Below, piece after piece: positions 1 through 35,540 of a stretch of DNA of 64,000 bases. The position numbers and the translations under genes were made by a program. The notes under the pieces were generated by a model that saw only the letters and a program-made list of their open reading frames with translations, was not told where the DNA came from and ran no database searches. Source of the stretch: the human T2T-CHM13v2.0 reference genome, Homo sapiens; the NCBI RefSeq assembly GCF_009914755.1, contig NC_060931.1. One strand, given 5' to 3'. Position 1 is the first letter of the stretch; every line of letters begins with the position of its first letter.

Positions 1-690
1 GTGTGTGTAGCATCTAGGTTGTTTTCACCTATTGGCTATTGTGACTAATGCTGCAATGAACATAGGAGTGTAGATATCTTTACAAGGTGGTGATTTCATC
101 TCCTTTGGGTAAACACCCAGAAGAAGGATTGCCAGGTCATATGATAGTTTTACTTTTATTTTCTTTGGGAACCTCCACACTGTTTTGTATAACAGCTGTA
201 CCAAGCTACATTTTTTTTTTTTTTTTTTTTTTGAGACAGAGTCTCACTCTGTTTCCCAGGCTGGACTGCAGTTGTGTGATCTCGGCTCACTACAACCTCT
301 GCCTCCCAGGTTCCAGTGATTCTCCTGCCTCAGCCTCCTGAGTAGCTGGGATTACAGGCGCCCACCACCATGCCTGGCTTATTTTTTGTATTTTTAGTAG
401 AGATGGGGTTTCGTCATGTTGGCCAGGCTGGTCTCGAACTCCTGACCTTAGGTGATCTGCCTGCCTCACCCTCCCAAAGTGCTGGGATTACAGGTGTGAG
501 CCATTGTGCCCAGCCCAATCTACATTTCTATCAACAGTGTACTGGGGTTCTCTTTTCTCCATACTGTCGCAAACATCTGTAATCTTTTGACTTTTTGATA
601 ATGGTTATCCTTATGGGTATGAGATGATATCTCATAGTGGTATTAATTTGCATTTACCTGATGATGAATGATGTTGAGCGCCTTTATATG
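1..690 (-). mobile_element. Old L1 (L1M-type) ORF2 3' fragment interrupted by an Alu
   Basis: Antisense L1 motifs (ctgcaatgaacat..., gagatgatatctcatagtgg...taatttgcattt) continue on both sides of the Alu. Confidence 0.8.
211..515 (-). mobile_element. Alu (AluS-like), full length
   Basis: T22 tail and full antisense Alu. TSD caagctacattt (202-213) / caatctacattt (516-527). Confidence 0.95.
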
Positions 691-3600
691 AGGTTATTTA
701 TAGAATTGAAGAAAGATTCCTCATTCTGAAAAAAAAATTCTTCTGATAATGCAATTTATTCTTGGTGAACTATGTGGAATTGACTTTTTTCACTTTTTTT
801 TTTCCATAGAACTCTTTCAACCTATGGGAGGTAGGGACTTCTGCCCTCCAAGTTTTCATCGTGATTCCAAATGCACTACTGAAGTGGCATTGCTTTCTTT
901 GCTATTAAACATGGGTTTTCTGCTTCTTCTAGAGAGTTCTTTTCCTAATGGAGGTCAGCAAACTGCAAGGCCTAGCAATGATTGATCCCAGTCCCATACA
1001 GCATTTTACAAAGCCAAAGTAACAGCAGCCTGAGCCATGGCACAGTAAAAGTGGTTTTACATTTCCAATGCCTGTCCTAAAGTAGTTTTAGAGGTCAGCA
1101 TTGATCAATAAATCATTCTGATCACATGTATCCTCTCTGGGGGCCCATTAGCTAGTGGTGATGACTTAGTCATCTCACCATCAGCTTCATTAGTCCAGAA
1201 GTCGCTGGGACCACAAGTTCAAATCCCTGTTGAGCTGATGTAGCTCTTGGTCTTCCTGAAGTAGATAAATTGAGCTTCACATAGTTTGTCGTGCAGAGAT
1301 TTCTATGATGCATCATCTGCTCTCCGGTGGCAGTACAAGATCTATGACCCCTTTTTTTAAAAGGAGACAATGCCTGATCCTACCCTAGTAACTTCTCTTT
1401 TCATCTAACTCAAATAAGGCAGATATATGGCTTCTGAAATGATTAGATTCATTAATTTCCTTAAAATGCCATGTCAGGGCAATGATGCCCCTTTGCCAAT
1501 AATCCCATGCCCTTAACTGTGTGAACATTCTGTGAGGGCTTGGTAGAGGGAGGCTTTCAAATCCAGTTCTTCCAAGACTCCAGCAGAGGACTGGAGTCTG
1601 GAAAAAGTAAGGAAGGGGACCGCTGGTAACCCTTTTGAATGACAGTAACAAAATGTCTGTATTTTTTCTGTTTGTGCCTTGTGACTGGTAAGATTATCAG
1701 GATGAGAGTAACATCAGCGTGGCTTATCTTCTTTCTGTAGCCAAGAGGGCTCACGATAGAGAAAAAGGTGATCTGCAGGCCAAGGACATTGTCCACACTG
1801 CCTATTTATGCTTGTATACTCATGCAGTGTTGGAAAATGCAGTGAACCGTGAGTTTTAGTTGGGTAGGGCTTTGTCTGAAACTGGAGTCCAAAAGTATCA
1901 TGAAGATTCTTATCATTGAGATGCTCAGGGTCCTGTAAAAACTCCTCAATAGTCAGTACCTGGTTAATCCTCCTCCAAGAGTTCCTGACAAATCAACCAA
2001 GAGGCCAAATTATCTTCCAGGCTGTGGGTGGATAAGTGACCCCCCAGCTAGTTGTTAGGGACTGGCTGTGGCAGTTATTTATTTTACTGGGCTGGAAAAA
2101 ACCTTTCTGTCCCCAAAGGTTCCTGCTTCTCCTCCTGGCCACTGGAGAGAGATACGAAGGAAGGCTGGTATTAAAGTTCTCTACCCGATCCAAACCTCTC
2201 CTCCCTCGTCCCTGTATTAAGAGGTTTCCCATACCTGTTGGCAGACCCCCATAAAAGGTGGCAAATGGGCAAAGCAGTGAGGGGTGCCAGCCCAAGAAGT
2301 CTGGTCTTCTCCCTGTGGCTGGATCGGCTGAGATTCCTAAGGTCATTCAGTGATTTGCTGCCAGAGTGGAAATCACTCCCTAGGTCCCCTGACTCGGCAT
2401 CCAGCTCTCCATCCATTAGATCGTGAAGCCTCTCACCACCAGCGAGACACACTCAGGACACTTTAATTTCAGAGTTTGATTCTATGTCTATTTTTCAGCT
2501 ATTTGCTGCAACATTCTGGGAAAGTAAGGTTTAAATTTCCTACAATCCAAATCATTTTCTAGTTTACTTATAAGTGATTCTGAAACAGTTGGCCCTGGAA
2601 AGCTGACAACTTGATAAAATGTATCTTTCAAATCAACCTAGTGCTGCCTTTATATATAGTTAAATCATCCAAATCCAGGGTGCCGAGTTAAGAAACGGAG
2701 ATCTTCTGTTCCCAGGCTGCCTGTCACTTTGGGTAAGAAAACACACAGAGTTATGCTCGCTTACGCTTACTCAAGTGAGGTCTCTTGGGAAAGAAATAAG
2801 CACTGGCTTTTGGCAGGTTTATCTGCTTTTAGCCTATAAGAAATGGTTTCTGCGGTGATGTGCGTTGGACAAAGGTGGTTTGGGGAGACTTAGTGTCAAA
2901 ACTAGCAGCCAGTATAATGTTGATGGAGAAAAGATTTTATATATATATATATTATTATGAAGGTTGGAGGGTTGAAGAGCAATACTGAGCATTCAACACC
3001 AATGATGGCAGTTTCTATTGCTTTAAAAAAATAGATTGATCTGTATTTGAACTGATGTGGCATTTATTCATGACAACAAGCTGGGATTGATGTGACATGC
3101 CTTGCATCTCTCTACACCGACCCAGGATCTCAGACATGGTGGCTTTTCTGATTTTGCTACACAATACGATCGCATCCCACCCTTTGGGGGAAAAATGGGG
3201 TCGAGAGCATGAAAAAAATAGGGAGTCATTTCAAAACATCTACATTTATATCCAGAGATTCTAGATGTCAACAGAAGGGTTTTGATGCCTTTTTATTTCA
3301 GGGTAAATCAGTGAAATGAAATCATTATCCTCATACTACTATTGTAGTTAACAATTAATTAAAAGATTAATTAAAAGAAATGAACAGATACACTGATTAA
3401 GCTGATTTTTTTATTTCAACAGCCCAGATAAAGTCGTGGTGCTACTTATTCAGTTTTTTCCCTTCATCTCTGTACGTTGCTTGTTTTTCTAAAGAGTAGG
3501 AATGTAAAAATCAGTACTGTAGTTGAGTCCCTTAACATCCAGGCCAAAGAGTGCAGTACCATGAGAAGCCTTGCGGGCAAAGGGGACGCACTTGGAAAAA

Positions 3601-4210: not shown

Positions 4211-7200
4211 TATGTGCTCATGTGTCTGAGCATTATGTCTAAGTTCATTCACATCTAAGATCCTTAAAGGCAAGGCTTATGCCTTGGTCTTCTCTATAGT
4301 ACTTCCCACATTGCTAATAGTTGATCCGTTTTATTGAAATTAATTGGATTAGAAATTGCAACCGCAGGTAGAACCACTTTCTAGGGTTGATAACCCTGAA
4401 TGAAACATGAATTCATGCTCTTCTTTTGTATATAGGCTCTGTGGGTGAGGGTGGGGCCTCCTAGCCAAGTTGAAAAAAAGATGACAACTGGGGAAGAGAA
4501 TATCACTACTGCAATGAATGTACCGATGACTGCCCTGGCTCAAGGCATAGTAATCTTTCCCTTTATTTACTGTGAATCTAGGCAGAACCCCAGCAAAATG
4601 GAGAAGGTGGCTGTGTTTCTGTAGTAATCCCATGGCCCGGAAATAGTAAAATAGTTCAACATGTGCTGTTCAACTGATACTATGTGCTGATTCATGCTTT
4701 CAGGTTGTAGGACAGTTGGAAATTGTTCAAGAGGGGTGGACCTGTGGAATAAAATGATCCCGGTACACAGGTTCTCCCCTCTCATCCATAAAAGAACCAC
4801 ACCTGAAAGTGAAAGTTGAGTAGTGACTTTCCTCAATGACCAGTGTGGTGGAATGAGGGATAAAGCAATCTCATATCCAAGCAGGCAAAACAAGATCAGA
4901 TTAAAGAAAAAGCATTTGGGGGTTCTGAAAGGAACTGATCAACTTTTAAAAAGAAATAATTCCAAACAAATATTTCTCTTGCTATTACTGAGTTTTTTTG
5001 GGGGGTGGGGGTTGGGGGGGAGTTCAGTCCTAAAGCTTTTTTTTTCTTAGTAATGAGATAGAGCAACCTTATATGAGAGGAAGAAGATGAAGAGGGTGAG
5101 ATGGAAAGGGTATTAAAAATCTTTTTCACTATAGCCAGGATGCCTTGCTTTCCAAACTTGTGTGAAAATTGTGAAAAGTGGTTTTATTTTTGGGAAAAGA
5201 GGGAGGAGCATAAGAGAATGATTTGTTGAAGACCAATCTGGAGGAGTATAATTCCCATTTAGAAAAACTCAACTTGCAAATCATAAGCTCTGAAGTTGCA
5301 AATACCTTTGAAAAACTTTGCTAGCAAATCTACATCAAATGTATCCTGTAGTATTTGTCTTAAACCAGGTTCATGTGTATTGAAATGTTTTACTCTCAAG
5401 ACAACTACATGTTGTGTCAGAGGATGCATAAATAAAAGGCAAACATCCAATTTTATAATTTACATTATAATTCAGTGGTCTTAATTTTTGTTCCCTAAGC
5501 TTTCTGAAAGGAAGATAGACTTGAAAGAGAGAAATTTATTTTTAAAGTTTATCTGTTATTTTAGCATGAAAGTTTTATCTATATATTTTTATATAAAATG
5601 TGTAAATAGCCATATGGCAAACACTATTCAATTAGCCACCCATATTAAACAATGTAATAGTACCTATTGTTGAAGCCCCTGAGGATTCCTTCTTGAGAAA
5701 ATTCCCCTTCCTACTCCCAAAATGTAACTCCTATCCTGAATTTGATGGGTCACATTATTTTTCATATTAAATAGCTGTTAGTTTCCAAAAAATACATATT
5801 AAATACACATTTTGGCTGACAGAGACATAATGACCTAAGAAAATGTCTATATCTCTCTCTAAATGACCAGGTAAAATCCAGATTGTGAGTTTCTTGCCTA
5901 ACACAGGAATGTAGCACCAACAATGAAGGAATGTTTATGCTGTGTCTAAGATTAGTGGATTACAGTATGATCGTAAACATGTATTTTACAAAAGACCATA
6001 TTGACTACAGACCCCCATTAGATCATTTAAGTTAGCTGAATGATCATGAAAGAATTGGGCAAGTGTTCATTGACTTTTGAGGCTTTTCCATTATTCAGTA
6101 GATATTTTGCAATTTCACATGTTTTTTTCCCTTTTAACCCTGTCTCTAGTCTTCATTTCAGCTATGTAGTTTATGTCAGTACTGTGCTTTAGATTAATTG
6201 AGATAATATATAAAAAGAGTTTAGGAAACTATACAGCATGAAATGAATGCTGTTATAATTGCTCCATTACTGAGAAAGCCAGAAATTTGAGAGATACTGC
6301 TTAAAGGGTAATGAAAAAAATCTCAGAGTGGGATTTGCAAACTAACTTTAATACATGGAGGACTTCCTTCTAGATTTTTCGAGTTTTATAGCTGGATGGA
6401 ATCTTCTAGACAGTCATTCATCTTGTTTATTTAAAGATACAAAATTAAGGTATAGAGAAGTTAAACGACTCAAAAGCATGCAAGATCATTCAGGAAGATT
6501 CAAGATGAAAACCAGTGTTCCCAACCCCTCATTCATTGCTCTTCCCTTCCCTGCTTACCTCTTCAGGAAAAGGAAGCTGGGGAGGAATGTCTAGATTTCA
6601 ACCATGCACCACATACGTGCACAAACCTTCACCTAGCATCAAAGTAATGCTTTTGTGTCACTTGGCCTGGCAGGACTGAACAGAATGGTTTTCTTCATGG
6701 TCAAAACTTTAAGGGGAGTTTTCTTTTGTTTCTACTGCAAACAAAATAGTCTCTCTTTTCCTAGTGCCACCAGATATGTCTTTAGAACTTCTTTGTATTT
6801 ATTGTAATCTGTGAATATTGTGTTTTACAGCCTGTAAATTAGATATAGAATTGAATACCGAGGCAGAGCACAGGCTGTTAAAATGTTCAATTCCGGTGGG
6901 GGAACCAGTGAGCAGTTAAGGCCTGGTGCATATAATGTTAATATTACATTAAGTACTATGTTATTGCATGAGATGCTTATTGTTAATGTCTGTGGGGAGG
7001 ATCCGTTCCAAAGATTTCAATTTCAATAAACAGATTACGCAGTTCCACCATACACAATTAGGGAGGTGGTAATGAAATGGTTATAAAGTCCCTTGTGGAT
7101 CTGTCATCTTTTTTTTTAATTTTGTAAATATCATCAGAAGCATTCTAGAGGGAAGTGCTTATGCATTTATTTATTATCGATTTTTTAAAAATACATTTAA

Positions 7201-7744
7201 CATTACTGGTTATTGCAAATCCAGTCTCAGTGAGTTAAAGAAGATAAGCTGTTTCTAGATTATTAAATGCTGAGTGTATAGGGAATTGTGAAGTGGCATC
7301 CTTCATATAAATATATTAAATATTAATAAACAGTGATTGTAAGGAATTAATTTACAGCTACATTTACTTGGCAAATAAAACCGTATTAAGGTTTTGCCCT
7401 TTTGTTGCATGCAATGCATGTTTTAAAGAAACCCCTTTGGCTAATGGTTTGGATGACTGCAAGTGATTCTGTCCTACAGCTGAAATCATGCACAACTGCA
7501 GATAATCAAGTCGGGTTAAACATACATTCTTTCAACAGGCAACGAATTGTTGGAGGTGCAACTTCAATAAACTGACAAAGTTTTGAGGGATCCCTAAATG
7601 GTTAACTGTTATTCCTTCTGGGGCCTATAATAAAGCAGTAAAAATGAATGCTGGATGGTTAGTAGCCGAAATATCTCCTTGGAGTAAGATGTTTAATATA
7701 GCAGACAAAAATTCAGGATGCTAGCCGTTCATTCAGGAAGGCAT

Positions 7745-7965
7745 GCTACAGGCTGAAGAGCAGGGATCTGAAGCAGGCTGTCTGGATTTTATTTTTTCCA
7801 ACTTCAGCAATTCATGTAATTTCTCTGCGCTTTAGTTTCTTCATCTGTAAAATGTGGATAACTATGTTCCATTCTTCCTAGAATGTTGTGATTGAGATTA
7901 AAGGAAACGTATATAGTAAGCACAAAACATAGTATGTTGCTCATAGTACTCAATAATTATTAGTA
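7745..7965 (+). mobile_element. MIR
   Basis: Core tttagtttcttcatctgtaaaatg and tail tagtactcaataattattag. Confidence 0.75.
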
Positions 7966-13149: not shown

Positions 13150-13382
13150 GTAGTGGGAAGTGTTCTGGATGGAGATTCAGAGACTTGGGGGCCTACTCCC
13201 TGCTTTGACACTTATGAGGTGATTTTGACCAAATCCCTTAAAACCTCTTTTGGGACAGCACATTTGGCATCCTGTGGATCTGTCTCTTGCGTCAATAGTG
13301 TTTGGACAGAACAGATCCAGAGACTCTCTATTAAAATAAAAAATAAATAAACCTCTCTTGGTTTCAGTTTCATCTTTAAAAT
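13150..13382 (+). mobile_element. MIR split by the FTL-derived insertion
   Basis: gtgattttgaccaaatcccttaaaacctct resumes after the insert as acctctcttggtttcagtttcatctttaaaat. Confidence 0.65.
13254..13348 (+). pseudogene. Mini-retrocopy of the ferritin light chain (FTL) mRNA 5' end / iron-responsive element, with A-tail
   Basis: tcctgtggatctgtctcttgcgtcaatagtgtttggacagaacagatccagagactctct closely matches the recalled FTL 5'UTR (TCCCGCGGGTCTGTCTCTTGCTTCAACAGTGTTTGGACGGAACAGATCCGGGGACTCTCT), with several differences explained by CpG decay. A-rich tail at 13330-13348. TSD aaacctcttttgg (13241-53) / aaacctctcttgg (13349-61). TT/AAAA L1 endonuclease site. Confidence 0.88.
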
Positions 13383-13394
13383 TTAACGGTTAAA

Positions 13395-13985
13395 GCAATT
13401 TCACTACTGGATATATTTCCAAAGGAAATGAAATCAGTATGTTGAAGAGATGTCTGCACTCCCATGTTCATTGTAGCACTATTTACAATAGATCAGAAAT
13501 GGAAACAACTAGGTGTCCATCAGTGGATGAATGGATAAAGAAAATGTGGTACAGATACACAACGGAATACTATTCAGCCTTAAAAAAGCAGGAAATCTTG
13601 TCATTTGTAACAGCATGCATGAACCAGAGGGACAATATGTTAAAAGAAATAAGCCAGGTGCAGGTTACCAGAGGCTGGGAGAGGGATGAAGTCCGGGGAG
13701 AAGGGGAGATGTTGTTCAAAGGATACAAAATTCCAGTTAGGCAGGAGAAGTAAGTTCAAGAGATCTACTATAAATCATGGTGACCATAGTTAATAATGAT
13801 GCATTGTATACTTGAAAATTGCTAAGAGGGTAAATTTTTAAGAGCTCTTACCACAAAAAAGTTAACTATAATGTGTACATTCATTATCTTGAATTAGCCA
13901 TTCCGCAATGTATACATATTTCAAAACATGTTGTATATATTTATGATATCATAAATTTTATTTGTCAATTAAAAAATAAATAATA
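13395..13985 (+). mobile_element. L1MA-type 3' end (ORF2 C-terminus remnant plus 3'UTR)
   Basis: ORF 13439..13753 contains CPSVDEWIKKMWY...EYYSALKK (L1 ORF2 C-terminus). L1MA 3'UTR follows and ends tttgtcaattaaaaaataaa. Confidence 0.85.
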
Positions 13986-14093
13986 GTAAGTTTCAAACAT
14001 AGCAGTTAAACCATCGATTTTTTTTTTACCGTCTTTTCCTTCCTACATCCATGCTTTTCAAATGAAATCATTTCTATAAAGTAGATAAAAGCA

Positions 14094-14234
14094 CTCCATA
14101 GAGTCCTGCTGGAAGGTCACAGGGAGGGACAGGGTGGCAGGGTAGGTGGAACTCTGAGCCCACTTCCATCCCAGAGTTCCACCTACTCTGCCACCCTGTC
14201 CCTCCCTGTGACCTTCCAGCAGGACTCTATGGAG
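14094..14234. repeat. Long inverted repeat: 63-bp arms (14094-14156 / 14172-14234), 15-nt spacer, 1 mismatch
   Basis: Base-by-base reverse complement. The only non-Watson-Crick pair is G14141:T14187. Confidence 0.97.
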
Positions 14235-16739
14235 CAGGGTAGGAACCCATTGTTCTGGAAGGTCCCCATTAGCAATAAGGCTCTGGGTGTGCTAAGTCAC
14301 AATTTGTGCTGGGTGCAGTGTCATATGGGAAGGGATGCTGTGGAAGCATTTGCCATCCAGAGCTGCTGGTGGTCCTTAGGGTGTGCACTGAAGCAGGGTG
14401 GAGTTCACAAAAAGAGCTGTGGCCAGCATGGGGGAAGCCAGGGACAGAGCATGCTGGCCTCACACATGTGAGCGAAGGAAAGGAATGAAGATGAGAAGGA
14501 GAAGCTAAAGTCTAATACTCCTGTAGTTAAAGGTGAATATCTGCTAAGAATTTTGTGTCTGAAAGTTATTTCTTTACGGCAGGCTTTACAAGGAGATGCT
14601 GATCCTCTCCAGTAAGCCAGATAAGTCTTCTTTACCCTCATTCACTCCATTCCCAAGTCTGCATTAGGTACATTAGATATGGTCCCACTTTTCCTATTCA
14701 TTAATATTAGCATGGTGCCACCCATTATTTTTATTTCTTTGAAGTCATCCTTGGCCTATTTATTTAAATTATGCAAAGGGTTTGTATTTCCTAAGATTAC
14801 AACTCCACTAGGATCAATGATTATGTCATGCTTCCCCGGGGATTACAGCCTGCCCTGACTGGCGGCGCACTCAGTGTTTTCATAGGACTTTTCCATCCTG
14901 GTGATAATCTAATGCCCTTGATTAAAAGGCAACTACACTCCCCCCAGCCCCTCATAAAGTGGTGTCTCAGGTGAGACTAACCCCTCCTTCATCTGTTAAC
15001 CCTTTTAAGCCAGGCTGTGGCTACCCAACGTTGCTTACTCTTTGTCCTCAGTCTCAACTGAAGACCATGAATTTATTTCCACTAAAATTTGAAACGTTGA
15101 AACTAGACCAACTATGAAATTAATTGTCTAAGACAGTGATGCCTTACATGAGTCCCTGGACCCCTAGAGATTCTGAAGCCAATAGTGGCAGTTTCGTTAA
15201 CTATTTTTATTGTTTCAAAAGTCGTCAAATAAGAATTTACTCATGATAAACAATTAACAGATCAAATTTCTTTCATTAGGCTGAAGTTATATTATTTTTG
15301 TGGCTTAATAGGCTGATCTGTAACCCTGAAGGATAGTCATATATGTTTCGATAAATTAAAAATGAGATCAGAATATTATCACCTTTAAAGAAGTTCAGTT
15401 TATTTGACATAAAAGTTTTCCAAGATCAAGATGCTTAAGATAAAAGAGTAGTCAAGCTCTTGATGGAGGAAAAAACCTGGCAACTTAAGAAAAAGAAGAG
15501 GGGGGAAACAGGAGAGTTTTCTAAATAGAGGATCAAGGTGAATAAAAATCCAGAGGCAAAAAGTAATAATTAGCCAATAAATACAATACAAATTAGGAAC
15601 TGACCAGCCACACATGAGTAAAACTTTCTCAGTCCCAAACTTTCCAAATCCATGTAGTACATTGCAGCTCCTAGGTGATCATTCTTGCTTTGTAGTAAGC
15701 AAACCACATCCTTCGGAGAACCTTTTCCATTCATTCCTTCTCCCTACTCTAGGATGTTTAACATCATCCCTGTCATTGCACCTCACTACTCAGCAGCACA
15801 AATACCTGTTCATGTTCATCTTATCCACCAGACTGTATCCTATGTCTTGACATTTTCTGTGTCCAGCATAATGTCCAACACAAACAAGATATTTCACCAA
15901 TAGTGGTTGAATTAATAAATAAATGAATGAGTCTTGCTGCCAAAACCTAAGACATTTTATCACTTTTAGGTCTGGTTTTTCAAACAAGGATTCCACAGAC
16001 AGTGTGGAAAACTTGGTTGGTTCCACAATTAAAAATAACTTTGGAAAATGCTATATCCTATAATTCCTTCTCATATTCACAGTCCATTTTACATATTAAC
16101 GGGAGTTAGACTTTCTCTCCAAGTTCAATTTGGCTTGACCTCTAGTATCTCCCAACCTTATTTGATCACGTAAACTTTCTTCGCCTGCTGAATTATGGAT
16201 ACCAGAGAAGTAATGTTCTCTAAGACACTGATTGGGAAACAGTTCTTTGGAGAAGGAGGGTGTGTTTAGGAAGAGGTACAATGGGCATCATTTTGACAAA
16301 GCCCAAGTGTCAGCCTGACTGTTATCTGTGAAAGCCGGAGCCTGTCACTAGCCCTTAGGAAAGTCACACTTCCAAGGGACTGAGGGCTTGTCCCTACCTC
16401 TCTAACCCCTGGGGCTCTCTGGAGCTTTTTTGTTACCACTGTGATCCTTGTTTATCCTGTTTACCTTAATGGATCCTGTCCAACTGCTGAGCCTACCTGT
16501 GGAAGGTAGTGCTGGAATGTTCACCTCGCCCTAGTAAGGCAGAAAGCCTCTTTCCAAGCAGGTGCACTTCTTGGGGGATAAAAGACACATTTCATGACCA
16601 GTAGTGTCCCAAATTTGAGTGGGGTTTTCCCGTAGACTAATGTTAGCTCTGTAAGTTTTCTATATGGAAATAGACAAACTACATTTTGGGAAATTTTTGT
16701 GGGTTTGGCTATTAACTCATTTCAAAATAATACATATTC

Positions 16740-32728: not shown

Positions 32729-33463
32729 TAGGTGTCCCCAACTCCCAAGCTGCAGACTGGGACCAGTTCATGGCCTGTTAGAAACTGGGCTGCACAGCAG
32801 GAGGTGAGAGGCAGGCAAGTGAGCATTACTGCTTGAGCTCCACCTCCTGTCAGATCAGCAGCTGCATTAGATTCTCATAGGAGCATGAACCCTATTGTGA
32901 ACTGTGCATGCGAGGGATCTAGGCTGTGCACTCCTTATGAGAATCTAATGCCTGATGATCTGAGGTGGGAGAGTGTCATCCCGAAACCATCCCCCACCTG
33001 CTGTATTAGTCTGTTCTCACACTGCTATAAATAACTACCTGATACTGGGTAATTTGTAAAGAAAAGAGGTTTAATTGACTCACAGTTCCACAGACTACAA
33101 AGGAAGCATGGCTGCGGAGGCCTCAGGAAACTTACAATGGTGGCAGGAGGCAAAAGGAGAGCAGACAGTTCTTATGTAACAGGAGAAGGAGGAAGAGAGA
33201 GAGAAGGGGGAGGTGCTACACACTTTTATAAACAACAAGATCTCTTGAGAACTCACTCACCATTACAAGAATAGCAAGGGGGAAACCTGCCCCCATGATC
33301 CAATCACCTCCCACCAGGTCCCTCTTCCACATTGGGGATTATAATTGGACATGAGATTTGGGCAGGGACACAGACACTAACCAGATCACCACCCTCTTTG
33401 GTCTGTGGAAAAATTGTCTTCCACAAAACTGGTCCCTGGTAGCAAAAAGTTTGGGAACTGCTG
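32729..33463 (+). mobile_element. MER1B (hAT-Charlie) split by a MaLR LTR
   Basis: MER1B sequence on both sides of the LTR. 8-bp TSD ctttagac (32721-28) / ctctagac (33464-71). Confidence 0.88.
33002..33388 (-). mobile_element. THE1D/MSTA-type MaLR solo LTR
   Basis: tgtattagtctgttctcacactgctat ... gagatttgggcagggacacagacactaaccagatca. Confidence 0.88.
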
Positions 33464-35540
33464 CTCTAGACCAATAATTCTCACATTTCTTAGCCCTAAT
33501 AATGCCAAGAGTTCATACAAACCACCTTTTTCTATAGCTTCCATTGACAAAGAGTGAATTTTAAGTTTATGCAACTATTCGTTATCCACAATAACAAATA
33601 TAATTCCTCATCATTATAACACAAAACACACTATGCAAATCTAGATTATTATATCATGCTCCAAGCCAAAGTACAAACATTTTCATATTTCCAACATAAA
33701 ATCCACTCAGAGTCCAACATTCCAACCACCTGATTAAGGTCCGTAAGTCCAGGCTGACACCTGCATTCCCCATTAAGTCTTGCAAATGCCAGGGTCCTCC
33801 CTTCCTAAGAGGCCCAGTTCTGTTTTGATAGATACTAAAGAGGGGCAAATTCATGTGTTTAGTCTATGGGAAAGGACAAGCTGGTCCATGCAAATAGGCC
33901 AATAAATTATGGATTTATTTGCACAGCAATAGAATCATCATAAAGATTACAGTGACCCAATCTGTTAATTTTTCTTTTTCTCTATTTTGGTTATCTTTCC
34001 CCCTTCAGGTGCAGAAAAAATTGAATCAGTGCCAATTTGTTTAATTGGATTTTTAAAATAACCACAAAAAATATCAAGTAGTCCTTTTAAGCTTTTTGAG
34101 TGAGCTCAACAAGGGCCAAATCAATTAAGCAAATTGCTTTAAAAAATAATCTACTAACTCCAAACAAACCTCTTCCCTATTTCAGAGGTGGTATATGCCT
34201 AAATTTACGCCCAGCACATTTTTCCAGCTGAATTACCAGCTTCTCAACACTAGGGATTTAAAAGGGAAATGCTGACACAGTCTCAGCCCTGGTAGCAAAA
34301 TGGTGCAGCTTTAATCCAGCAGGGCTCTTTGGACAGCAACTGTGCGGCAAGGCAACAGTTTGCTGAAGCTTACTAAGCCCGTGGCTGTCACCTGATTTGT
34401 TTGTGGCTTGGGTGGGGCACTCATGCTCAAAATATCTGCACTCTGACTTACAAGACATTTTTCTCTCCTCTTTGGTTTTCTTACATAAATATATGTGAAA
34501 TATGAAACACACCAAATGGGTGGGAGATTTAATGGTTTTCTTTTTCCCTTTGTCTGCCACCTCCACCCTCACCTACAGTTTAATAAACAGTAGCATAAGA
34601 GCTGTATTTTCTTTTGAGCAGTAATATGTAACCAGAACAAACAGAGGACATAGGAAAGGTGGAAAAAAGTTAGATATACAAGCAAGAAAAAGTGAGTTAT
34701 TGATTTTATTGACTGGTCTGTTAACTTCTGACATTGCAATGAAGTCTTATTTATTTGTATACGGAAGACTCAATTACATAGATACATATCATTTTAACAA
34801 CTGGGTTATTTACAGGAGAATTGCAGCTTCATAAATAATATAGACCTGGAATTTTTCAAGCTGATGTTTATCCATTGTTACCTAAAGAAGTTATGATGGC
34901 TGCAAGTACACTTCAGTGTAAAGTCATTAGAACAGCATTACAATAGGATGGGTGGCGGGATGGGGGAGGGGGGTGAAGGACAATAGTGTACTAAGGACAA
35001 GAATGCTCAGTCCAGTGACGATATACAGCAAATACTCCTGGGCTAATCAGATCCAGGACAGCGCCACTGGATTGTCCTCCCTCCCACCATAACATGACAA
35101 CCAGGAAAATTGTCAATGGAGACAGTTGGGTTCAAGCAACCAGGTTTTTAAACTTCTGTTTTAACTGTTTTTACAAACCCTGAAATATAATGCTAATGAC
35201 TTAAAACCGAAGTTTATGAAGGATATGTCTAAAAACAAAGCCTACGTCTCAAAGAAGGTTTTATAAAAATAGAACCAGGTATTCCCAAATATCTTCTCTT
35301 GATGGGGCAACTGGTAGACATGTAGGGGAATATTCTAGTGCTGCCCTGCGTTCCCTGGAATTTCCTAGATCCTCTTTCAGGTGATCTCCTGAAATAATTC
35401 CTTGTTTAACCATTAGTTTAATGGTAGCTTCATTGCCAGGTTGTAGGCCCCAGAGGCTCAGGGAGCATATCTGGCCATCATTCAGTAAATATTTTTGGGA
35501 ATTAGTAAATTAATTAAGTAATGAGAAGTATGACAACTTG

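What the first reader, a model, noticed from the sequence alone, without database searches (positions are those of the whole stretch)
14094..14234. 63-bp-arm near-perfect palindrome that is fully paired in the pre-mRNA
Seen: arms 14094-14156 and 14172-14234 are reverse complements at 62/63 positions around a 15-nt loop. The single exception, G14141:T14187, is a G-U wobble in the + strand RNA, so the POU6F2 pre-mRNA can form an uninterrupted GC-rich 63-bp duplex. The arms resemble no repeat I recognise and show no TSD. The arm sub-motifs gcagggtagg and ctggaaggtc recur just downstream (14234-43 and ~14255-64). Established: such palindromes arise by replication template switching, can extrude cruciforms, and are substrates for ADAR and Drosha/Dicer. 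Inference: this is either a young template-switch product (possible de novo miRNA or endo-siRNA source) or is maintained by arm-to-arm conversion. It lies <800 bp from the IRE-derived hairpin.
Basis: partly seen in the sequence, partly recalled or inferred. Interest (0 to 1): 0.75.

Follow-up and report, generated by a model that had tools for sequence, protein, structure and literature searches.

The report
Replication-error hairpin in POU6F2 intron
Deep in an intron of the human gene POU6F2 lies a stretch of 63 bases followed, 15 bases later, by its almost perfect reverse-complement copy; it is likely the neutral scar of one DNA-copying accident in a primate ancestor, unusually long but of a known kind, and is predicted to be a poor microRNA precursor.

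Summary
Observation confirmed: arms 14094-14156 and 14172-14234 pair at 62 of 63 positions around 15 nt (z -15.9). No other copy turned up genome-wide, and there is no usable TSD, so it is not a young MITE. The two downstream 10-mers are exact copies of left-arm sequence and exceed chance (0 of 5000 shuffles). An inverted copy followed by short forward copies matches published multi-switch templated insertions (PMC8421209); template switching made about 31,000 new stems in human genic DNA (PMC10710096). New here: the left arm holds a canonical G-quadruplex motif (14122-14142), the sources of the 10-mers bracket it, and the single mismatch breaks its copy. That is a possible trigger, found post hoc. 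Function is unsupported: the G-U wobble is a 1-in-3 chance outcome, both strands fold equally well, and the 63-bp stem exceeds the ~35 bp Microprocessor prefers, with no UG, UGU or CNNC motif. One mismatch needs no arm conversion (0.2-44 Myr at an assumed 1e-9 per site per year). Orthologues, Dfam and RNA data could not be checked. Long-tail member of a known kind; low interest.

The parts
14094..14156 (+). Left arm, 63 bp, G-rich on + strand; inferred ancestral (template) copy
   Evidence: GC skew +0.37, like 14235-14510 (+0.29 to +0.37)
14122..14142 (+). Canonical G-quadruplex motif (four GGG tracts, loops 1, 3 and 5 nt) inside the left arm; possible trigger of the event
   Evidence: 1 of 15 such motifs in 264 kb; G4Hunter-type maximum 1.68; structure predicted, not measured
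14157..14171 (.). 15-nt spacer, C-rich like the right arm; possibly inverted together with it
   Evidence: 1 G, 8 C; binomial P 0.001; empirical likelihood ratio only about 3
14172..14234 (-). Right arm, reverse-complement copy of the left arm; inferred to be the newly synthesised copy
14187..14187 (+). Only mismatch (T opposite G14141); inferred later C-to-T change in the right arm; breaks the fourth G-tract of the - strand copy of the G4 motif
   Evidence: (the downstream 10-mer carries the left-arm G)
14234..14243 (+). Exact 10-nt forward copy of 14137-14146, flush with the end of the right arm (1 nt shared)
14244..14254 (.). 11 nt between the two 10-mers; no template of more than 6 nt within 13950-14520
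   Evidence: greedy parse (a 6-mer at 14246 recurs at 14265)
14255..14264 (+). Exact 10-nt copy of 14109-14118 (equally the reverse complement of 14210-14219)

Best explanation
This is a single-copy inverted repeat with 63-bp arms that likely arose in one germline replication or repair accident by template switching, and it is likely neutral. Shown: the arms, their single-copy status at the search's sensitivity, two exact 10-mer copies at the right junction, and a G4 motif in the left arm. Inferred: a polymerase left its template near 14156-14171, copied the left arm in reverse (63 nt, or 78 nt if the spacer was inverted too), made two short forward copies from 14137-14146 and 14109-14118, and rejoined the original template (right arm new about 65%; all one event about 65%). 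Inferred more weakly (about 30%): stalling at the G4 motif at 14122-14142 set this off. One later transition made the mismatch. When POU6F2 is transcribed the intron would form a 63-bp duplex, more likely bound by ADAR or NF90 and degraded with the intron than cut into a microRNA. The DNA could form hairpins and be mildly fragile.
For: Single copy: only self; 26-mer with up to 3 mismatches found only in the two arms; the same DNA search found five paralogues at 80-88% identity for the neighbouring IRE fragment. No TSD. Two exact 10-mers beyond chance, on the right side only; none of 7 nt or more in the 100 nt upstream. The same order (reverse copy from upstream, then forward copies) is described for germline event FG-16, with 33 of 103 and 26 of 99 germline calls complex (PMC8421209). 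Template switching gave 53,666 events and 31,007 new stems in human genic regions, and 0.9% of miRNA-sized ones are in miRBase (PMC10710096). Copied fragments reach 128 nt, median 12 (PMC7954356). One difference in 63 pairs fits 0.2-44 Myr at an assumed 1e-9 per site per year. G4 motif in 208 of 87,473 63-mers, and 53 of 4,817 among those with at least 55% GC; G4 blocks give templated inserts in C. elegans (PMC4654259).
Against: No orthologue or second human haplotype could be read, so neither the ancestral state nor the age nor which arm is new is shown. The outer end of the left arm coincides roughly with the step from AT-rich flank (30% GC) to GC-rich sequence, which is simpler if the left arm is the new copy. 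Junction microhomology is only 1 nt at 14234 and cannot be read elsewhere. 11 nt between the 10-mers have no template. The G4 link is post hoc, the motif is retained rather than deleted, and the arm ends lie 14-30 nt from it, unlike the G4 deletions of PMC4654259. No event is listed at the estimated GRCh38 place among the 4017 great-ape events of PMC7954356, which fits an older or an undetected event but gives no positive support. Neutrality is inferred from priors, not measured.
Confidence: 0.8

Rival explanations
1. An older, looser inverted repeat that is kept or was recently made near-perfect by arm-to-arm template switching (classical quasi-palindrome correction), with or without spacer inversion.
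For: The mechanism is documented in human-chimp comparisons (PMC5453318; hsa-mir-4713 loop inversion in PMC10710096). The spacer's skew matches the right arm.
Against: Not needed: 1 mismatch is expected for an age under about 30 Myr (P of at most one difference 0.11-0.78 for 30-7 Myr). Complementarity stops abruptly outside 14094 and 14234, with no decayed outer arms. It does not explain the two 10-mers.
Confidence: 0.08
2. A functional intronic RNA hairpin under selection: a young non-canonical microRNA or siRNA source, or an editing or NF90 platform that tunes POU6F2 processing.
For: Sense-strand intronic position, as for 81 of 99 intragenic template-switch miRNAs (PMC10710096); uninterrupted duplex; NF90 prefers long stable stems (bioRxiv 10.1101/2020.01.24.916957).
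Against: Stem 63 bp against about 35 bp (PMC8865264). A cut measured from the base leaves a 117-nt product with a 50-bp stem, with no basal UG, apical UGU/GUG or CNNC. Human Microprocessor is impaired on long hairpins and helped by an internal bulge, which this one lacks (PMC12553114). No Rfam miRNA family reaches its gathering score, and the annotation given with the finding lists no RNA gene. The wobble is a 1-in-3 chance. The nearest annotated exon in the window is 39.7 kb away.
Confidence: 0.05
3. A remnant of a palindromic non-autonomous DNA transposon (MITE).
For: Terminal inverted arms with a short spacer and a total length of 141 bp; a flush 2-nt CA on both sides. The DNA search warns that no match does not prove rarity.
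Against: No second copy; no TSD of 3 nt or more flush with the ends. Arms of a 40-Myr-old element would show at most one difference with P 0.004-0.04 (the end of human DNA transposition at about 40 Myr is recalled). The stretch is not in the list of masked repeats given with the finding, which shows only the longest.
Confidence: 0.03
4. An assembly or library fold-back artefact in T2T-CHM13.
For: Fold-back chimeras make palindromes with short spacers (own knowledge); reads could not be inspected.
Against: A fold-back copy would be exact, yet the arms differ at one site, and the right junction carries two templated 10-mers.
Confidence: 0.02

Closest known systems
Short-range template-switch mutations, four-point model types 3-2-1-4 and 3-1-2-4 (PMC5453318; PMC7954356; PMC10710096)
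   Same: A near-perfect inverted copy of adjacent unique sequence with a short, possibly inverted spacer; intronic and sense to the host gene.
   Different: The copied fragment (63-78 nt) is far above the median of 12 nt (maximum 128), and the extra 10-mers need more than two switches. The ancestral state was not seen.
Complex germline MMBIR-type templated insertions (MMB-TI class CM, example FG-16; PMC8421209)
   Same: Reverse copy from an upstream template followed by short forward copies from templates within about 100 bp.
   Different: Those were called against a reference allele with resolvable microhomology; here no pre-event allele is available and only 1 nt of microhomology can be read.
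Long inverted repeats classed as recombinogenic (Lirex, PMC5414712)
   Same: Arms over 30 bp, identity over 85%, GC over 20%, short spacer; the paper reports over 100 recombinogenic ones in the human genome.
   Different: Longer than any comparable repeat in its 7.08-Mb test contig: 7 of 656 rows have spacer up to 50 and mismatch up to 5%, the longest 43 bp (counted by eye).
Template-switch-born primate microRNAs such as hsa-mir-4713, hsa-mir-5690 and hsa-mir-576 (PMC10710096)
   Same: Likely the same birth mechanism, and the same intronic sense position.
   Different: The 63-bp stem is outside the 30-55 range, there are no processing motifs, and there is no annotation or known reads.
G-quadruplex-induced, polymerase-theta-mediated lesions with templated inserts (C. 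elegans; PMC4654259)
   Same: A G4 motif with short templated copies from its edges.
   Different: There the G4 is deleted with a junction within 3 bp of the motif; here the motif is kept and duplicated in inverted orientation.

Membership tests
Template-switch mutation (four-point model) | Fragment is the reverse complement of nearby sequence | tested here: met
   62 of 63 complementary, 15 nt apart
Template-switch mutation (four-point model) | Outgroup or ancestral sequence lacks the repeat and is converted by two switches | not testable with these tools
   No primate genomes held; the genome search states the genome has no relatives
Template-switch mutation (four-point model) | One reciprocal pair of switches explains the whole change | tested here: inconclusive
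   Two further templated 10-mers at the right junction imply more switches if they belong to the same event
Complex MMBIR-type templated insertion | Several templates within about 100 bp, in mixed orientation | tested here: met
   63-nt reverse copy plus 10-mers from 14137-14146 and 14109-14118
Complex MMBIR-type templated insertion | Microhomology at the junctions | tested here: inconclusive
   1 nt at 14234; other junctions cannot be read without the pre-event allele
Canonical microRNA precursor | Stem of about 35 bp | tested here: not met
   63 uninterrupted pairs against about 35 bp (PMC8865264) or 30-55 (PMC10710096)
Canonical microRNA precursor | Terminal loop of 8-38 nt | tested here: met
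   15 nt (range)
Canonical microRNA precursor | Basal UG, apical UGU/GUG, flanking CNNC (enhancers, not obligatory) | tested here: not met
   None at the expected places for a cut measured from the base
Canonical microRNA precursor | Match to a known family at the curated threshold | tested here: not met
   All miRNA-family matches below gathering score (best 52.9 bits against 100); only IRE_I passes in the whole window
Canonical microRNA precursor | Discrete ~22-nt reads from both arms with 2-nt overhangs, Drosha and Dicer dependent | not testable with these tools
   No small-RNA data available
MITE / palindromic DNA transposon | Many dispersed copies | tested here: not met
   Only self; positive control found paralogues at 80-88%; families more diverged than that could be missed
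MITE / palindromic DNA transposon | Target-site duplication flush with the ends | tested here: not met
   Only a 2-nt CA, expected by chance about 1 time in 16
MITE / palindromic DNA transposon | Dfam or Repbase consensus match | not testable with these tools
   No repeat library available
Long inverted repeat, recombinogenic class (Lirex criteria) | Arm over 30 bp, mismatch under 15%, GC over 20%, arm-to-spacer ratio at least the mismatch rate | tested here: met
   63 bp, 1.6%, 60% GC, ratio 4.2 (criteria as read in passages)

The most novel reading that the evidence does not exclude
A G-quadruplex stalled a germline fork in an ape or Old World primate ancestor; the rescue duplicated the motif in inverted form and so locked an RNA G-quadruplex of the POU6F2 intron inside a 63-bp duplex. 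That duplex is now edited or cut into a lineage-specific small RNA in retina or brain, with a stem far longer than vertebrate canonical microRNAs carry: a structure-triggered birth of a non-canonical regulatory RNA.
Probability: 0.04. Interest if true: 0.65.

Novelty: new member of a known kind. Interest (0 to 1): 0.22.

Why it matters
As a neutral scar it matters little: tens of thousands of template-switch stems lie in human genes (PMC10710096). It is a clean example from the long tail (none as long in 7 Mb of a published scan), with readable templated pieces and a G4 motif, so it is a good test locus for two questions: whether G-quadruplex stalls seed long inverted duplications in the germline, and what human cells do with an unbroken 63-bp non-Alu duplex in an intron. 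It could also be a site of recurrent spacer inversion or small deletions, and one that short-read mapping handles badly.

Tried and rejected
A third, degenerate copy of the left arm at 14353-14401 looked suggestive but is not significant: 175-639 of 3000 shuffles and 6-17 of 513 window tiles score as well, by parameter set. A gapped pattern built from those two stretches gave 5 genome-wide matches (2 at this locus) against 0 for the control, but it is circular, and the three outside loci L008-L010 share no extended similarity. No tandem repeat overlaps the arms. The GC-rich block 14094-14520 has no convincing relative in the window or in 200 kb more of the gene, and no convincing TSD. Cryptic exon: the splice-donor-like site at 14142 matches 7 of 9 consensus positions, as do or better 142 of 3336 GT sites on the + strand of the window; rejected as unremarkable. 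Short ORFs over the region: the longest, 87 aa, has no Pfam match. Rfam miRNA matches are shape-driven and all below threshold. The G-U wobble as a sign of RNA selection was rejected. Literature: POU6F2 with inverted repeat gave 2 papers, neither about this locus by title and abstract start; broader searches listed none about it. POU6F2 is absent from the readable supplements of PMC10710096 and PMC7954356. A second great-ape event could not be used to check coordinates, because no local inverted repeat marks it. Earlier scan findings were not available.

Full report
Observation. The repeat is as described. Arms 14094-14156 and 14172-14234 are reverse complements at 62 of 63 positions around a 15-nt spacer, with G14141 opposite T14187; arms are 60% GC and have no CpG. 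Complementarity ends abruptly outside the arms. As RNA or DNA it folds far better than all 200 shuffles (z -15.9; z -17.5). In 264 kb of the POU6F2 region (the window and 20 stretches fetched; 2 kb counted twice), 143 inverted repeats with arms of at least 16 bp and loops up to 100 were found; 4 have at least 25% GC, and the next longest of these has 19-bp arms. In the full Table S1 of PMC5414712 (656 rows for a 7.08-Mb contig, counted by eye) 7 rows have spacer up to 50 and mismatch up to 5%, the longest 43 bp. So near-perfect repeats of 30-45 bp occur about once per Mb, and this one is rarer than one in 7 Mb on that sample. That paper puts recombinogenic long inverted repeats at over 100 per human genome (passages).

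Not a transposon. Searches of the window's own genome with left arm plus spacer, with the 286 nt downstream and with the 121 nt upstream found only this locus. A 26-mer with up to 3 mismatches matched only the two arms. As a positive control, the same search found five paralogues of the neighbouring IRE fragment at 80-88% identity. The tool warns that no match does not prove rarity, so an ancient, highly diverged repeat under the GC-rich block 14094-14510 is not excluded. There is no TSD beyond a flush 2-nt CA. Arms 40 Myr old would show at most one difference with P 0.004-0.04 at assumed rates of 1.5e-9 to 1e-9 per site per year; that human DNA transposons stopped moving about then is recalled.

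Anatomy of the right junction. Directly after the right arm come an exact copy of 14137-14146 (at 14234-14243, sharing one base with the arm), 11 nt without a local template, and an exact copy of 14109-14118 (at 14255-14264). Two matches of 10 nt arose in 0 of 5000 shuffles of the 41 nt downstream, 1 of 5000 for 101 nt, 6 of 5000 for 287 nt, and in 3 of 1265 real control tiles; the 100 nt upstream hold no match of 7 nt or more. The test is post hoc, but the margin is wide. A reverse copy from upstream followed by short forward copies is the order described for germline event FG-16 in PMC8421209, where complex events were 33 of 103 and 26 of 99 curated germline calls in two people (passages and section 10 part 1). 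The first 10-mer carries the left-arm G, so the mismatch is most simply a later C-to-T change at 14187 (inference).

Which arm is new. For the right arm: the templated pieces are flush with its end, and left arm and downstream sequence share a G skew (+0.37; +0.29 to +0.37) that the spacer (-0.78) and right arm (-0.35) interrupt. The spacer's skew is improbable under the flank's composition (binomial P 0.001), but the empirical test is milder: 30 of 1854 G-skewed 63-mers are followed by so C-rich a 15-mer, against 95 of 1861 for C-skewed neighbours, a ratio near 3. This weakly favours the spacer travelling with the right arm, as in type 3-1-2-4, which leaves an inverted spacer (PMC5453318, passages). 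Against: the left arm's outer end falls near the step from 30% to 60% GC, which is simpler if the left arm was pasted in, and that reading also explains the spacer's skew. I put the right arm as new at about 65%. A seeming third copy at 14353-14401 was not significant.

A possible trigger. The left arm holds a canonical four-tract G-quadruplex motif at 14122-14142, one of 15 in 264 kb; 208 of 87,473 sampled 63-mers contain one, and 53 of 4,817 among those with at least 55% GC. The source of the first 10-mer overlaps its last tract, the source of the second ends 3 nt before its first tract, and the mismatch breaks the fourth tract in the right-arm copy. The left arm alone is predicted to fold as an RNA G-quadruplex, which the full hairpin overrides. 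G4 blocks produce templated inserts through polymerase theta in C. elegans (PMC4654259, passages), but there the motif is deleted and the junction lies within 3 bp of it, which is not the case here. I noticed the motif after the fact, and give the trigger about 30%.

Age. One difference in 63 pairs gives 0.2-44 Myr (95%) at 1e-9, or 0.4-88 Myr at 0.5e-9 per site per year (rates from own knowledge). No conversion is needed. The table of 4017 human-chimp-gorilla events in PMC7954356 (count from passages) has no chr7 coordinate beginning 3916; its nearest are 39,139,956 and 39,186,179. My GRCh38 estimate for this locus, about chr7:39,165,070-39,165,210, rests on a recalled gene start; with that offset the event at 39,186,179 lands at window 35205, inside a 16-bp-arm inverted repeat at 35149-35216, which supports the offset. 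Absence from the table fits an event older than the African ape split, or one the method missed; it is weak evidence.

Function. The G-U wobble carries no weight: one random substitution gives G-U on the + strand with probability 0.33, and the two strands fold alike (-140.9 and -140.7 kcal/mol). Microprocessor prefers a stem of about 35 bp and cuts about 11 bp from the base (PMC8865264, passages); here that would leave a 117-nt product with a 50-bp stem, and basal UG, apical UGU/GUG and CNNC are absent. Vertebrates lack long miRNA hairpins, human Microprocessor is impaired on them, and an internal bulge helps (PMC12553114, passages); this duplex has none. Long stable stems are preferred by NF90, which competes with Microprocessor (bioRxiv 10.1101/2020.01.24.916957, passages). 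No Rfam miRNA family reaches threshold. The prior is low too: of 53,666 template switches in human genic regions, 31,007 made a new stem, 6,054 of miRNA size (stem 30-55), and 57 of those are in miRBase (PMC10710096, parts 1-4 of 6). Some ADAR editing would be expected for any such duplex (own knowledge) and would not show function. In DNA, inverted Alus 12 bp apart stall forks in primate cells (review PMC7999016, passages), so mild fragility is plausible but untested.

The IRE 780 bp upstream is unrelated. It lies in a retroposed fragment of about 76 nt with an A-rich tail and a 13-bp TSD with one mismatch (13241-13253, 13349-13361).

What is in print. POU6F2 with inverted repeat gave 2 papers, seen as listings only and not about this locus; two searches listed none. 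POU6F2 is not in the readable supplements of PMC10710096 (3 files) or PMC7954356 (6 files); one large file of each could not be read, and the genome-wide list of 53,666 events is not among the readable files. Wang and Leung 2009 (FEBS J, PMID 19243432), which by its title reports species-specific intronic long inverted repeats, is not held and may list this repeat. PMC5398296 (parts 1-2 of 6) counts 4.3 million inverted duplicates in the human genome under loose criteria.

Verdict. A real, unusually long and clean inverted duplication, most likely a neutral multi-switch templated insertion (confidence 0.8). New member of a known kind; interest 0.22.

Noticed in passing
window 13241-13361; L013 ~1501-1594 (+); L014 ~1484-1582 (-); L012, L015, L016: The IRE (Rfam IRE_I, 37.2 bits) sits in a retroposed 5'-end fragment of about 76 nt with an A-rich tail and a 13-bp TSD. 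3 of the 6 loci found (window, L013, L014) stop at nearly the same pyrimidine-rich point just after the IRE and go into an A-rich tail, while L012, L015 and L016 run on into shared longer sequence. This suggests repeated retroposition of a short IRE-only RNA. The parent looks like the ferritin light chain 5' UTR (recalled; two L016 frames gave no Pfam hit).
   Followed up: partly
window 35149-35216: AT-rich inverted repeat with 16-bp arms (1 mismatch, 36-nt spacer) that coincides with great-ape template-switch event 3395 of PMC7954356 (GRCh38 chr7:39,186,179) under my estimated offset.
   Followed up: partly
window ~13375-13990: Looks like the 3' end of an old L1 with an A-rich tail (recalled); part of it matches window 18-108 on the opposite strand at 77%.
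   Followed up: no
window 32864-32951 and L032 6231-6318: Same 16-bp-arm inverted repeat with a 56-nt spacer at both places, likely the internal palindrome of a dispersed DNA-transposon-derived repeat (family not checked).
   Followed up: no
L022 ~7198-7860 and L020 ~2390-3290: AT-rich palindromic microsatellite blocks in POU6F2 introns; one has 112-bp arms with 3 mismatches and no spacer (L022 7468-7691), a candidate cruciform-forming fragile site.
   Followed up: no
window 14018-14147: A pyrimidine-rich tract, AG dinucleotides near 14080-14084 and a donor-like site at 14142 buried in the duplex; the donor match (7 of 9) is common in the window.
   Followed up: partly
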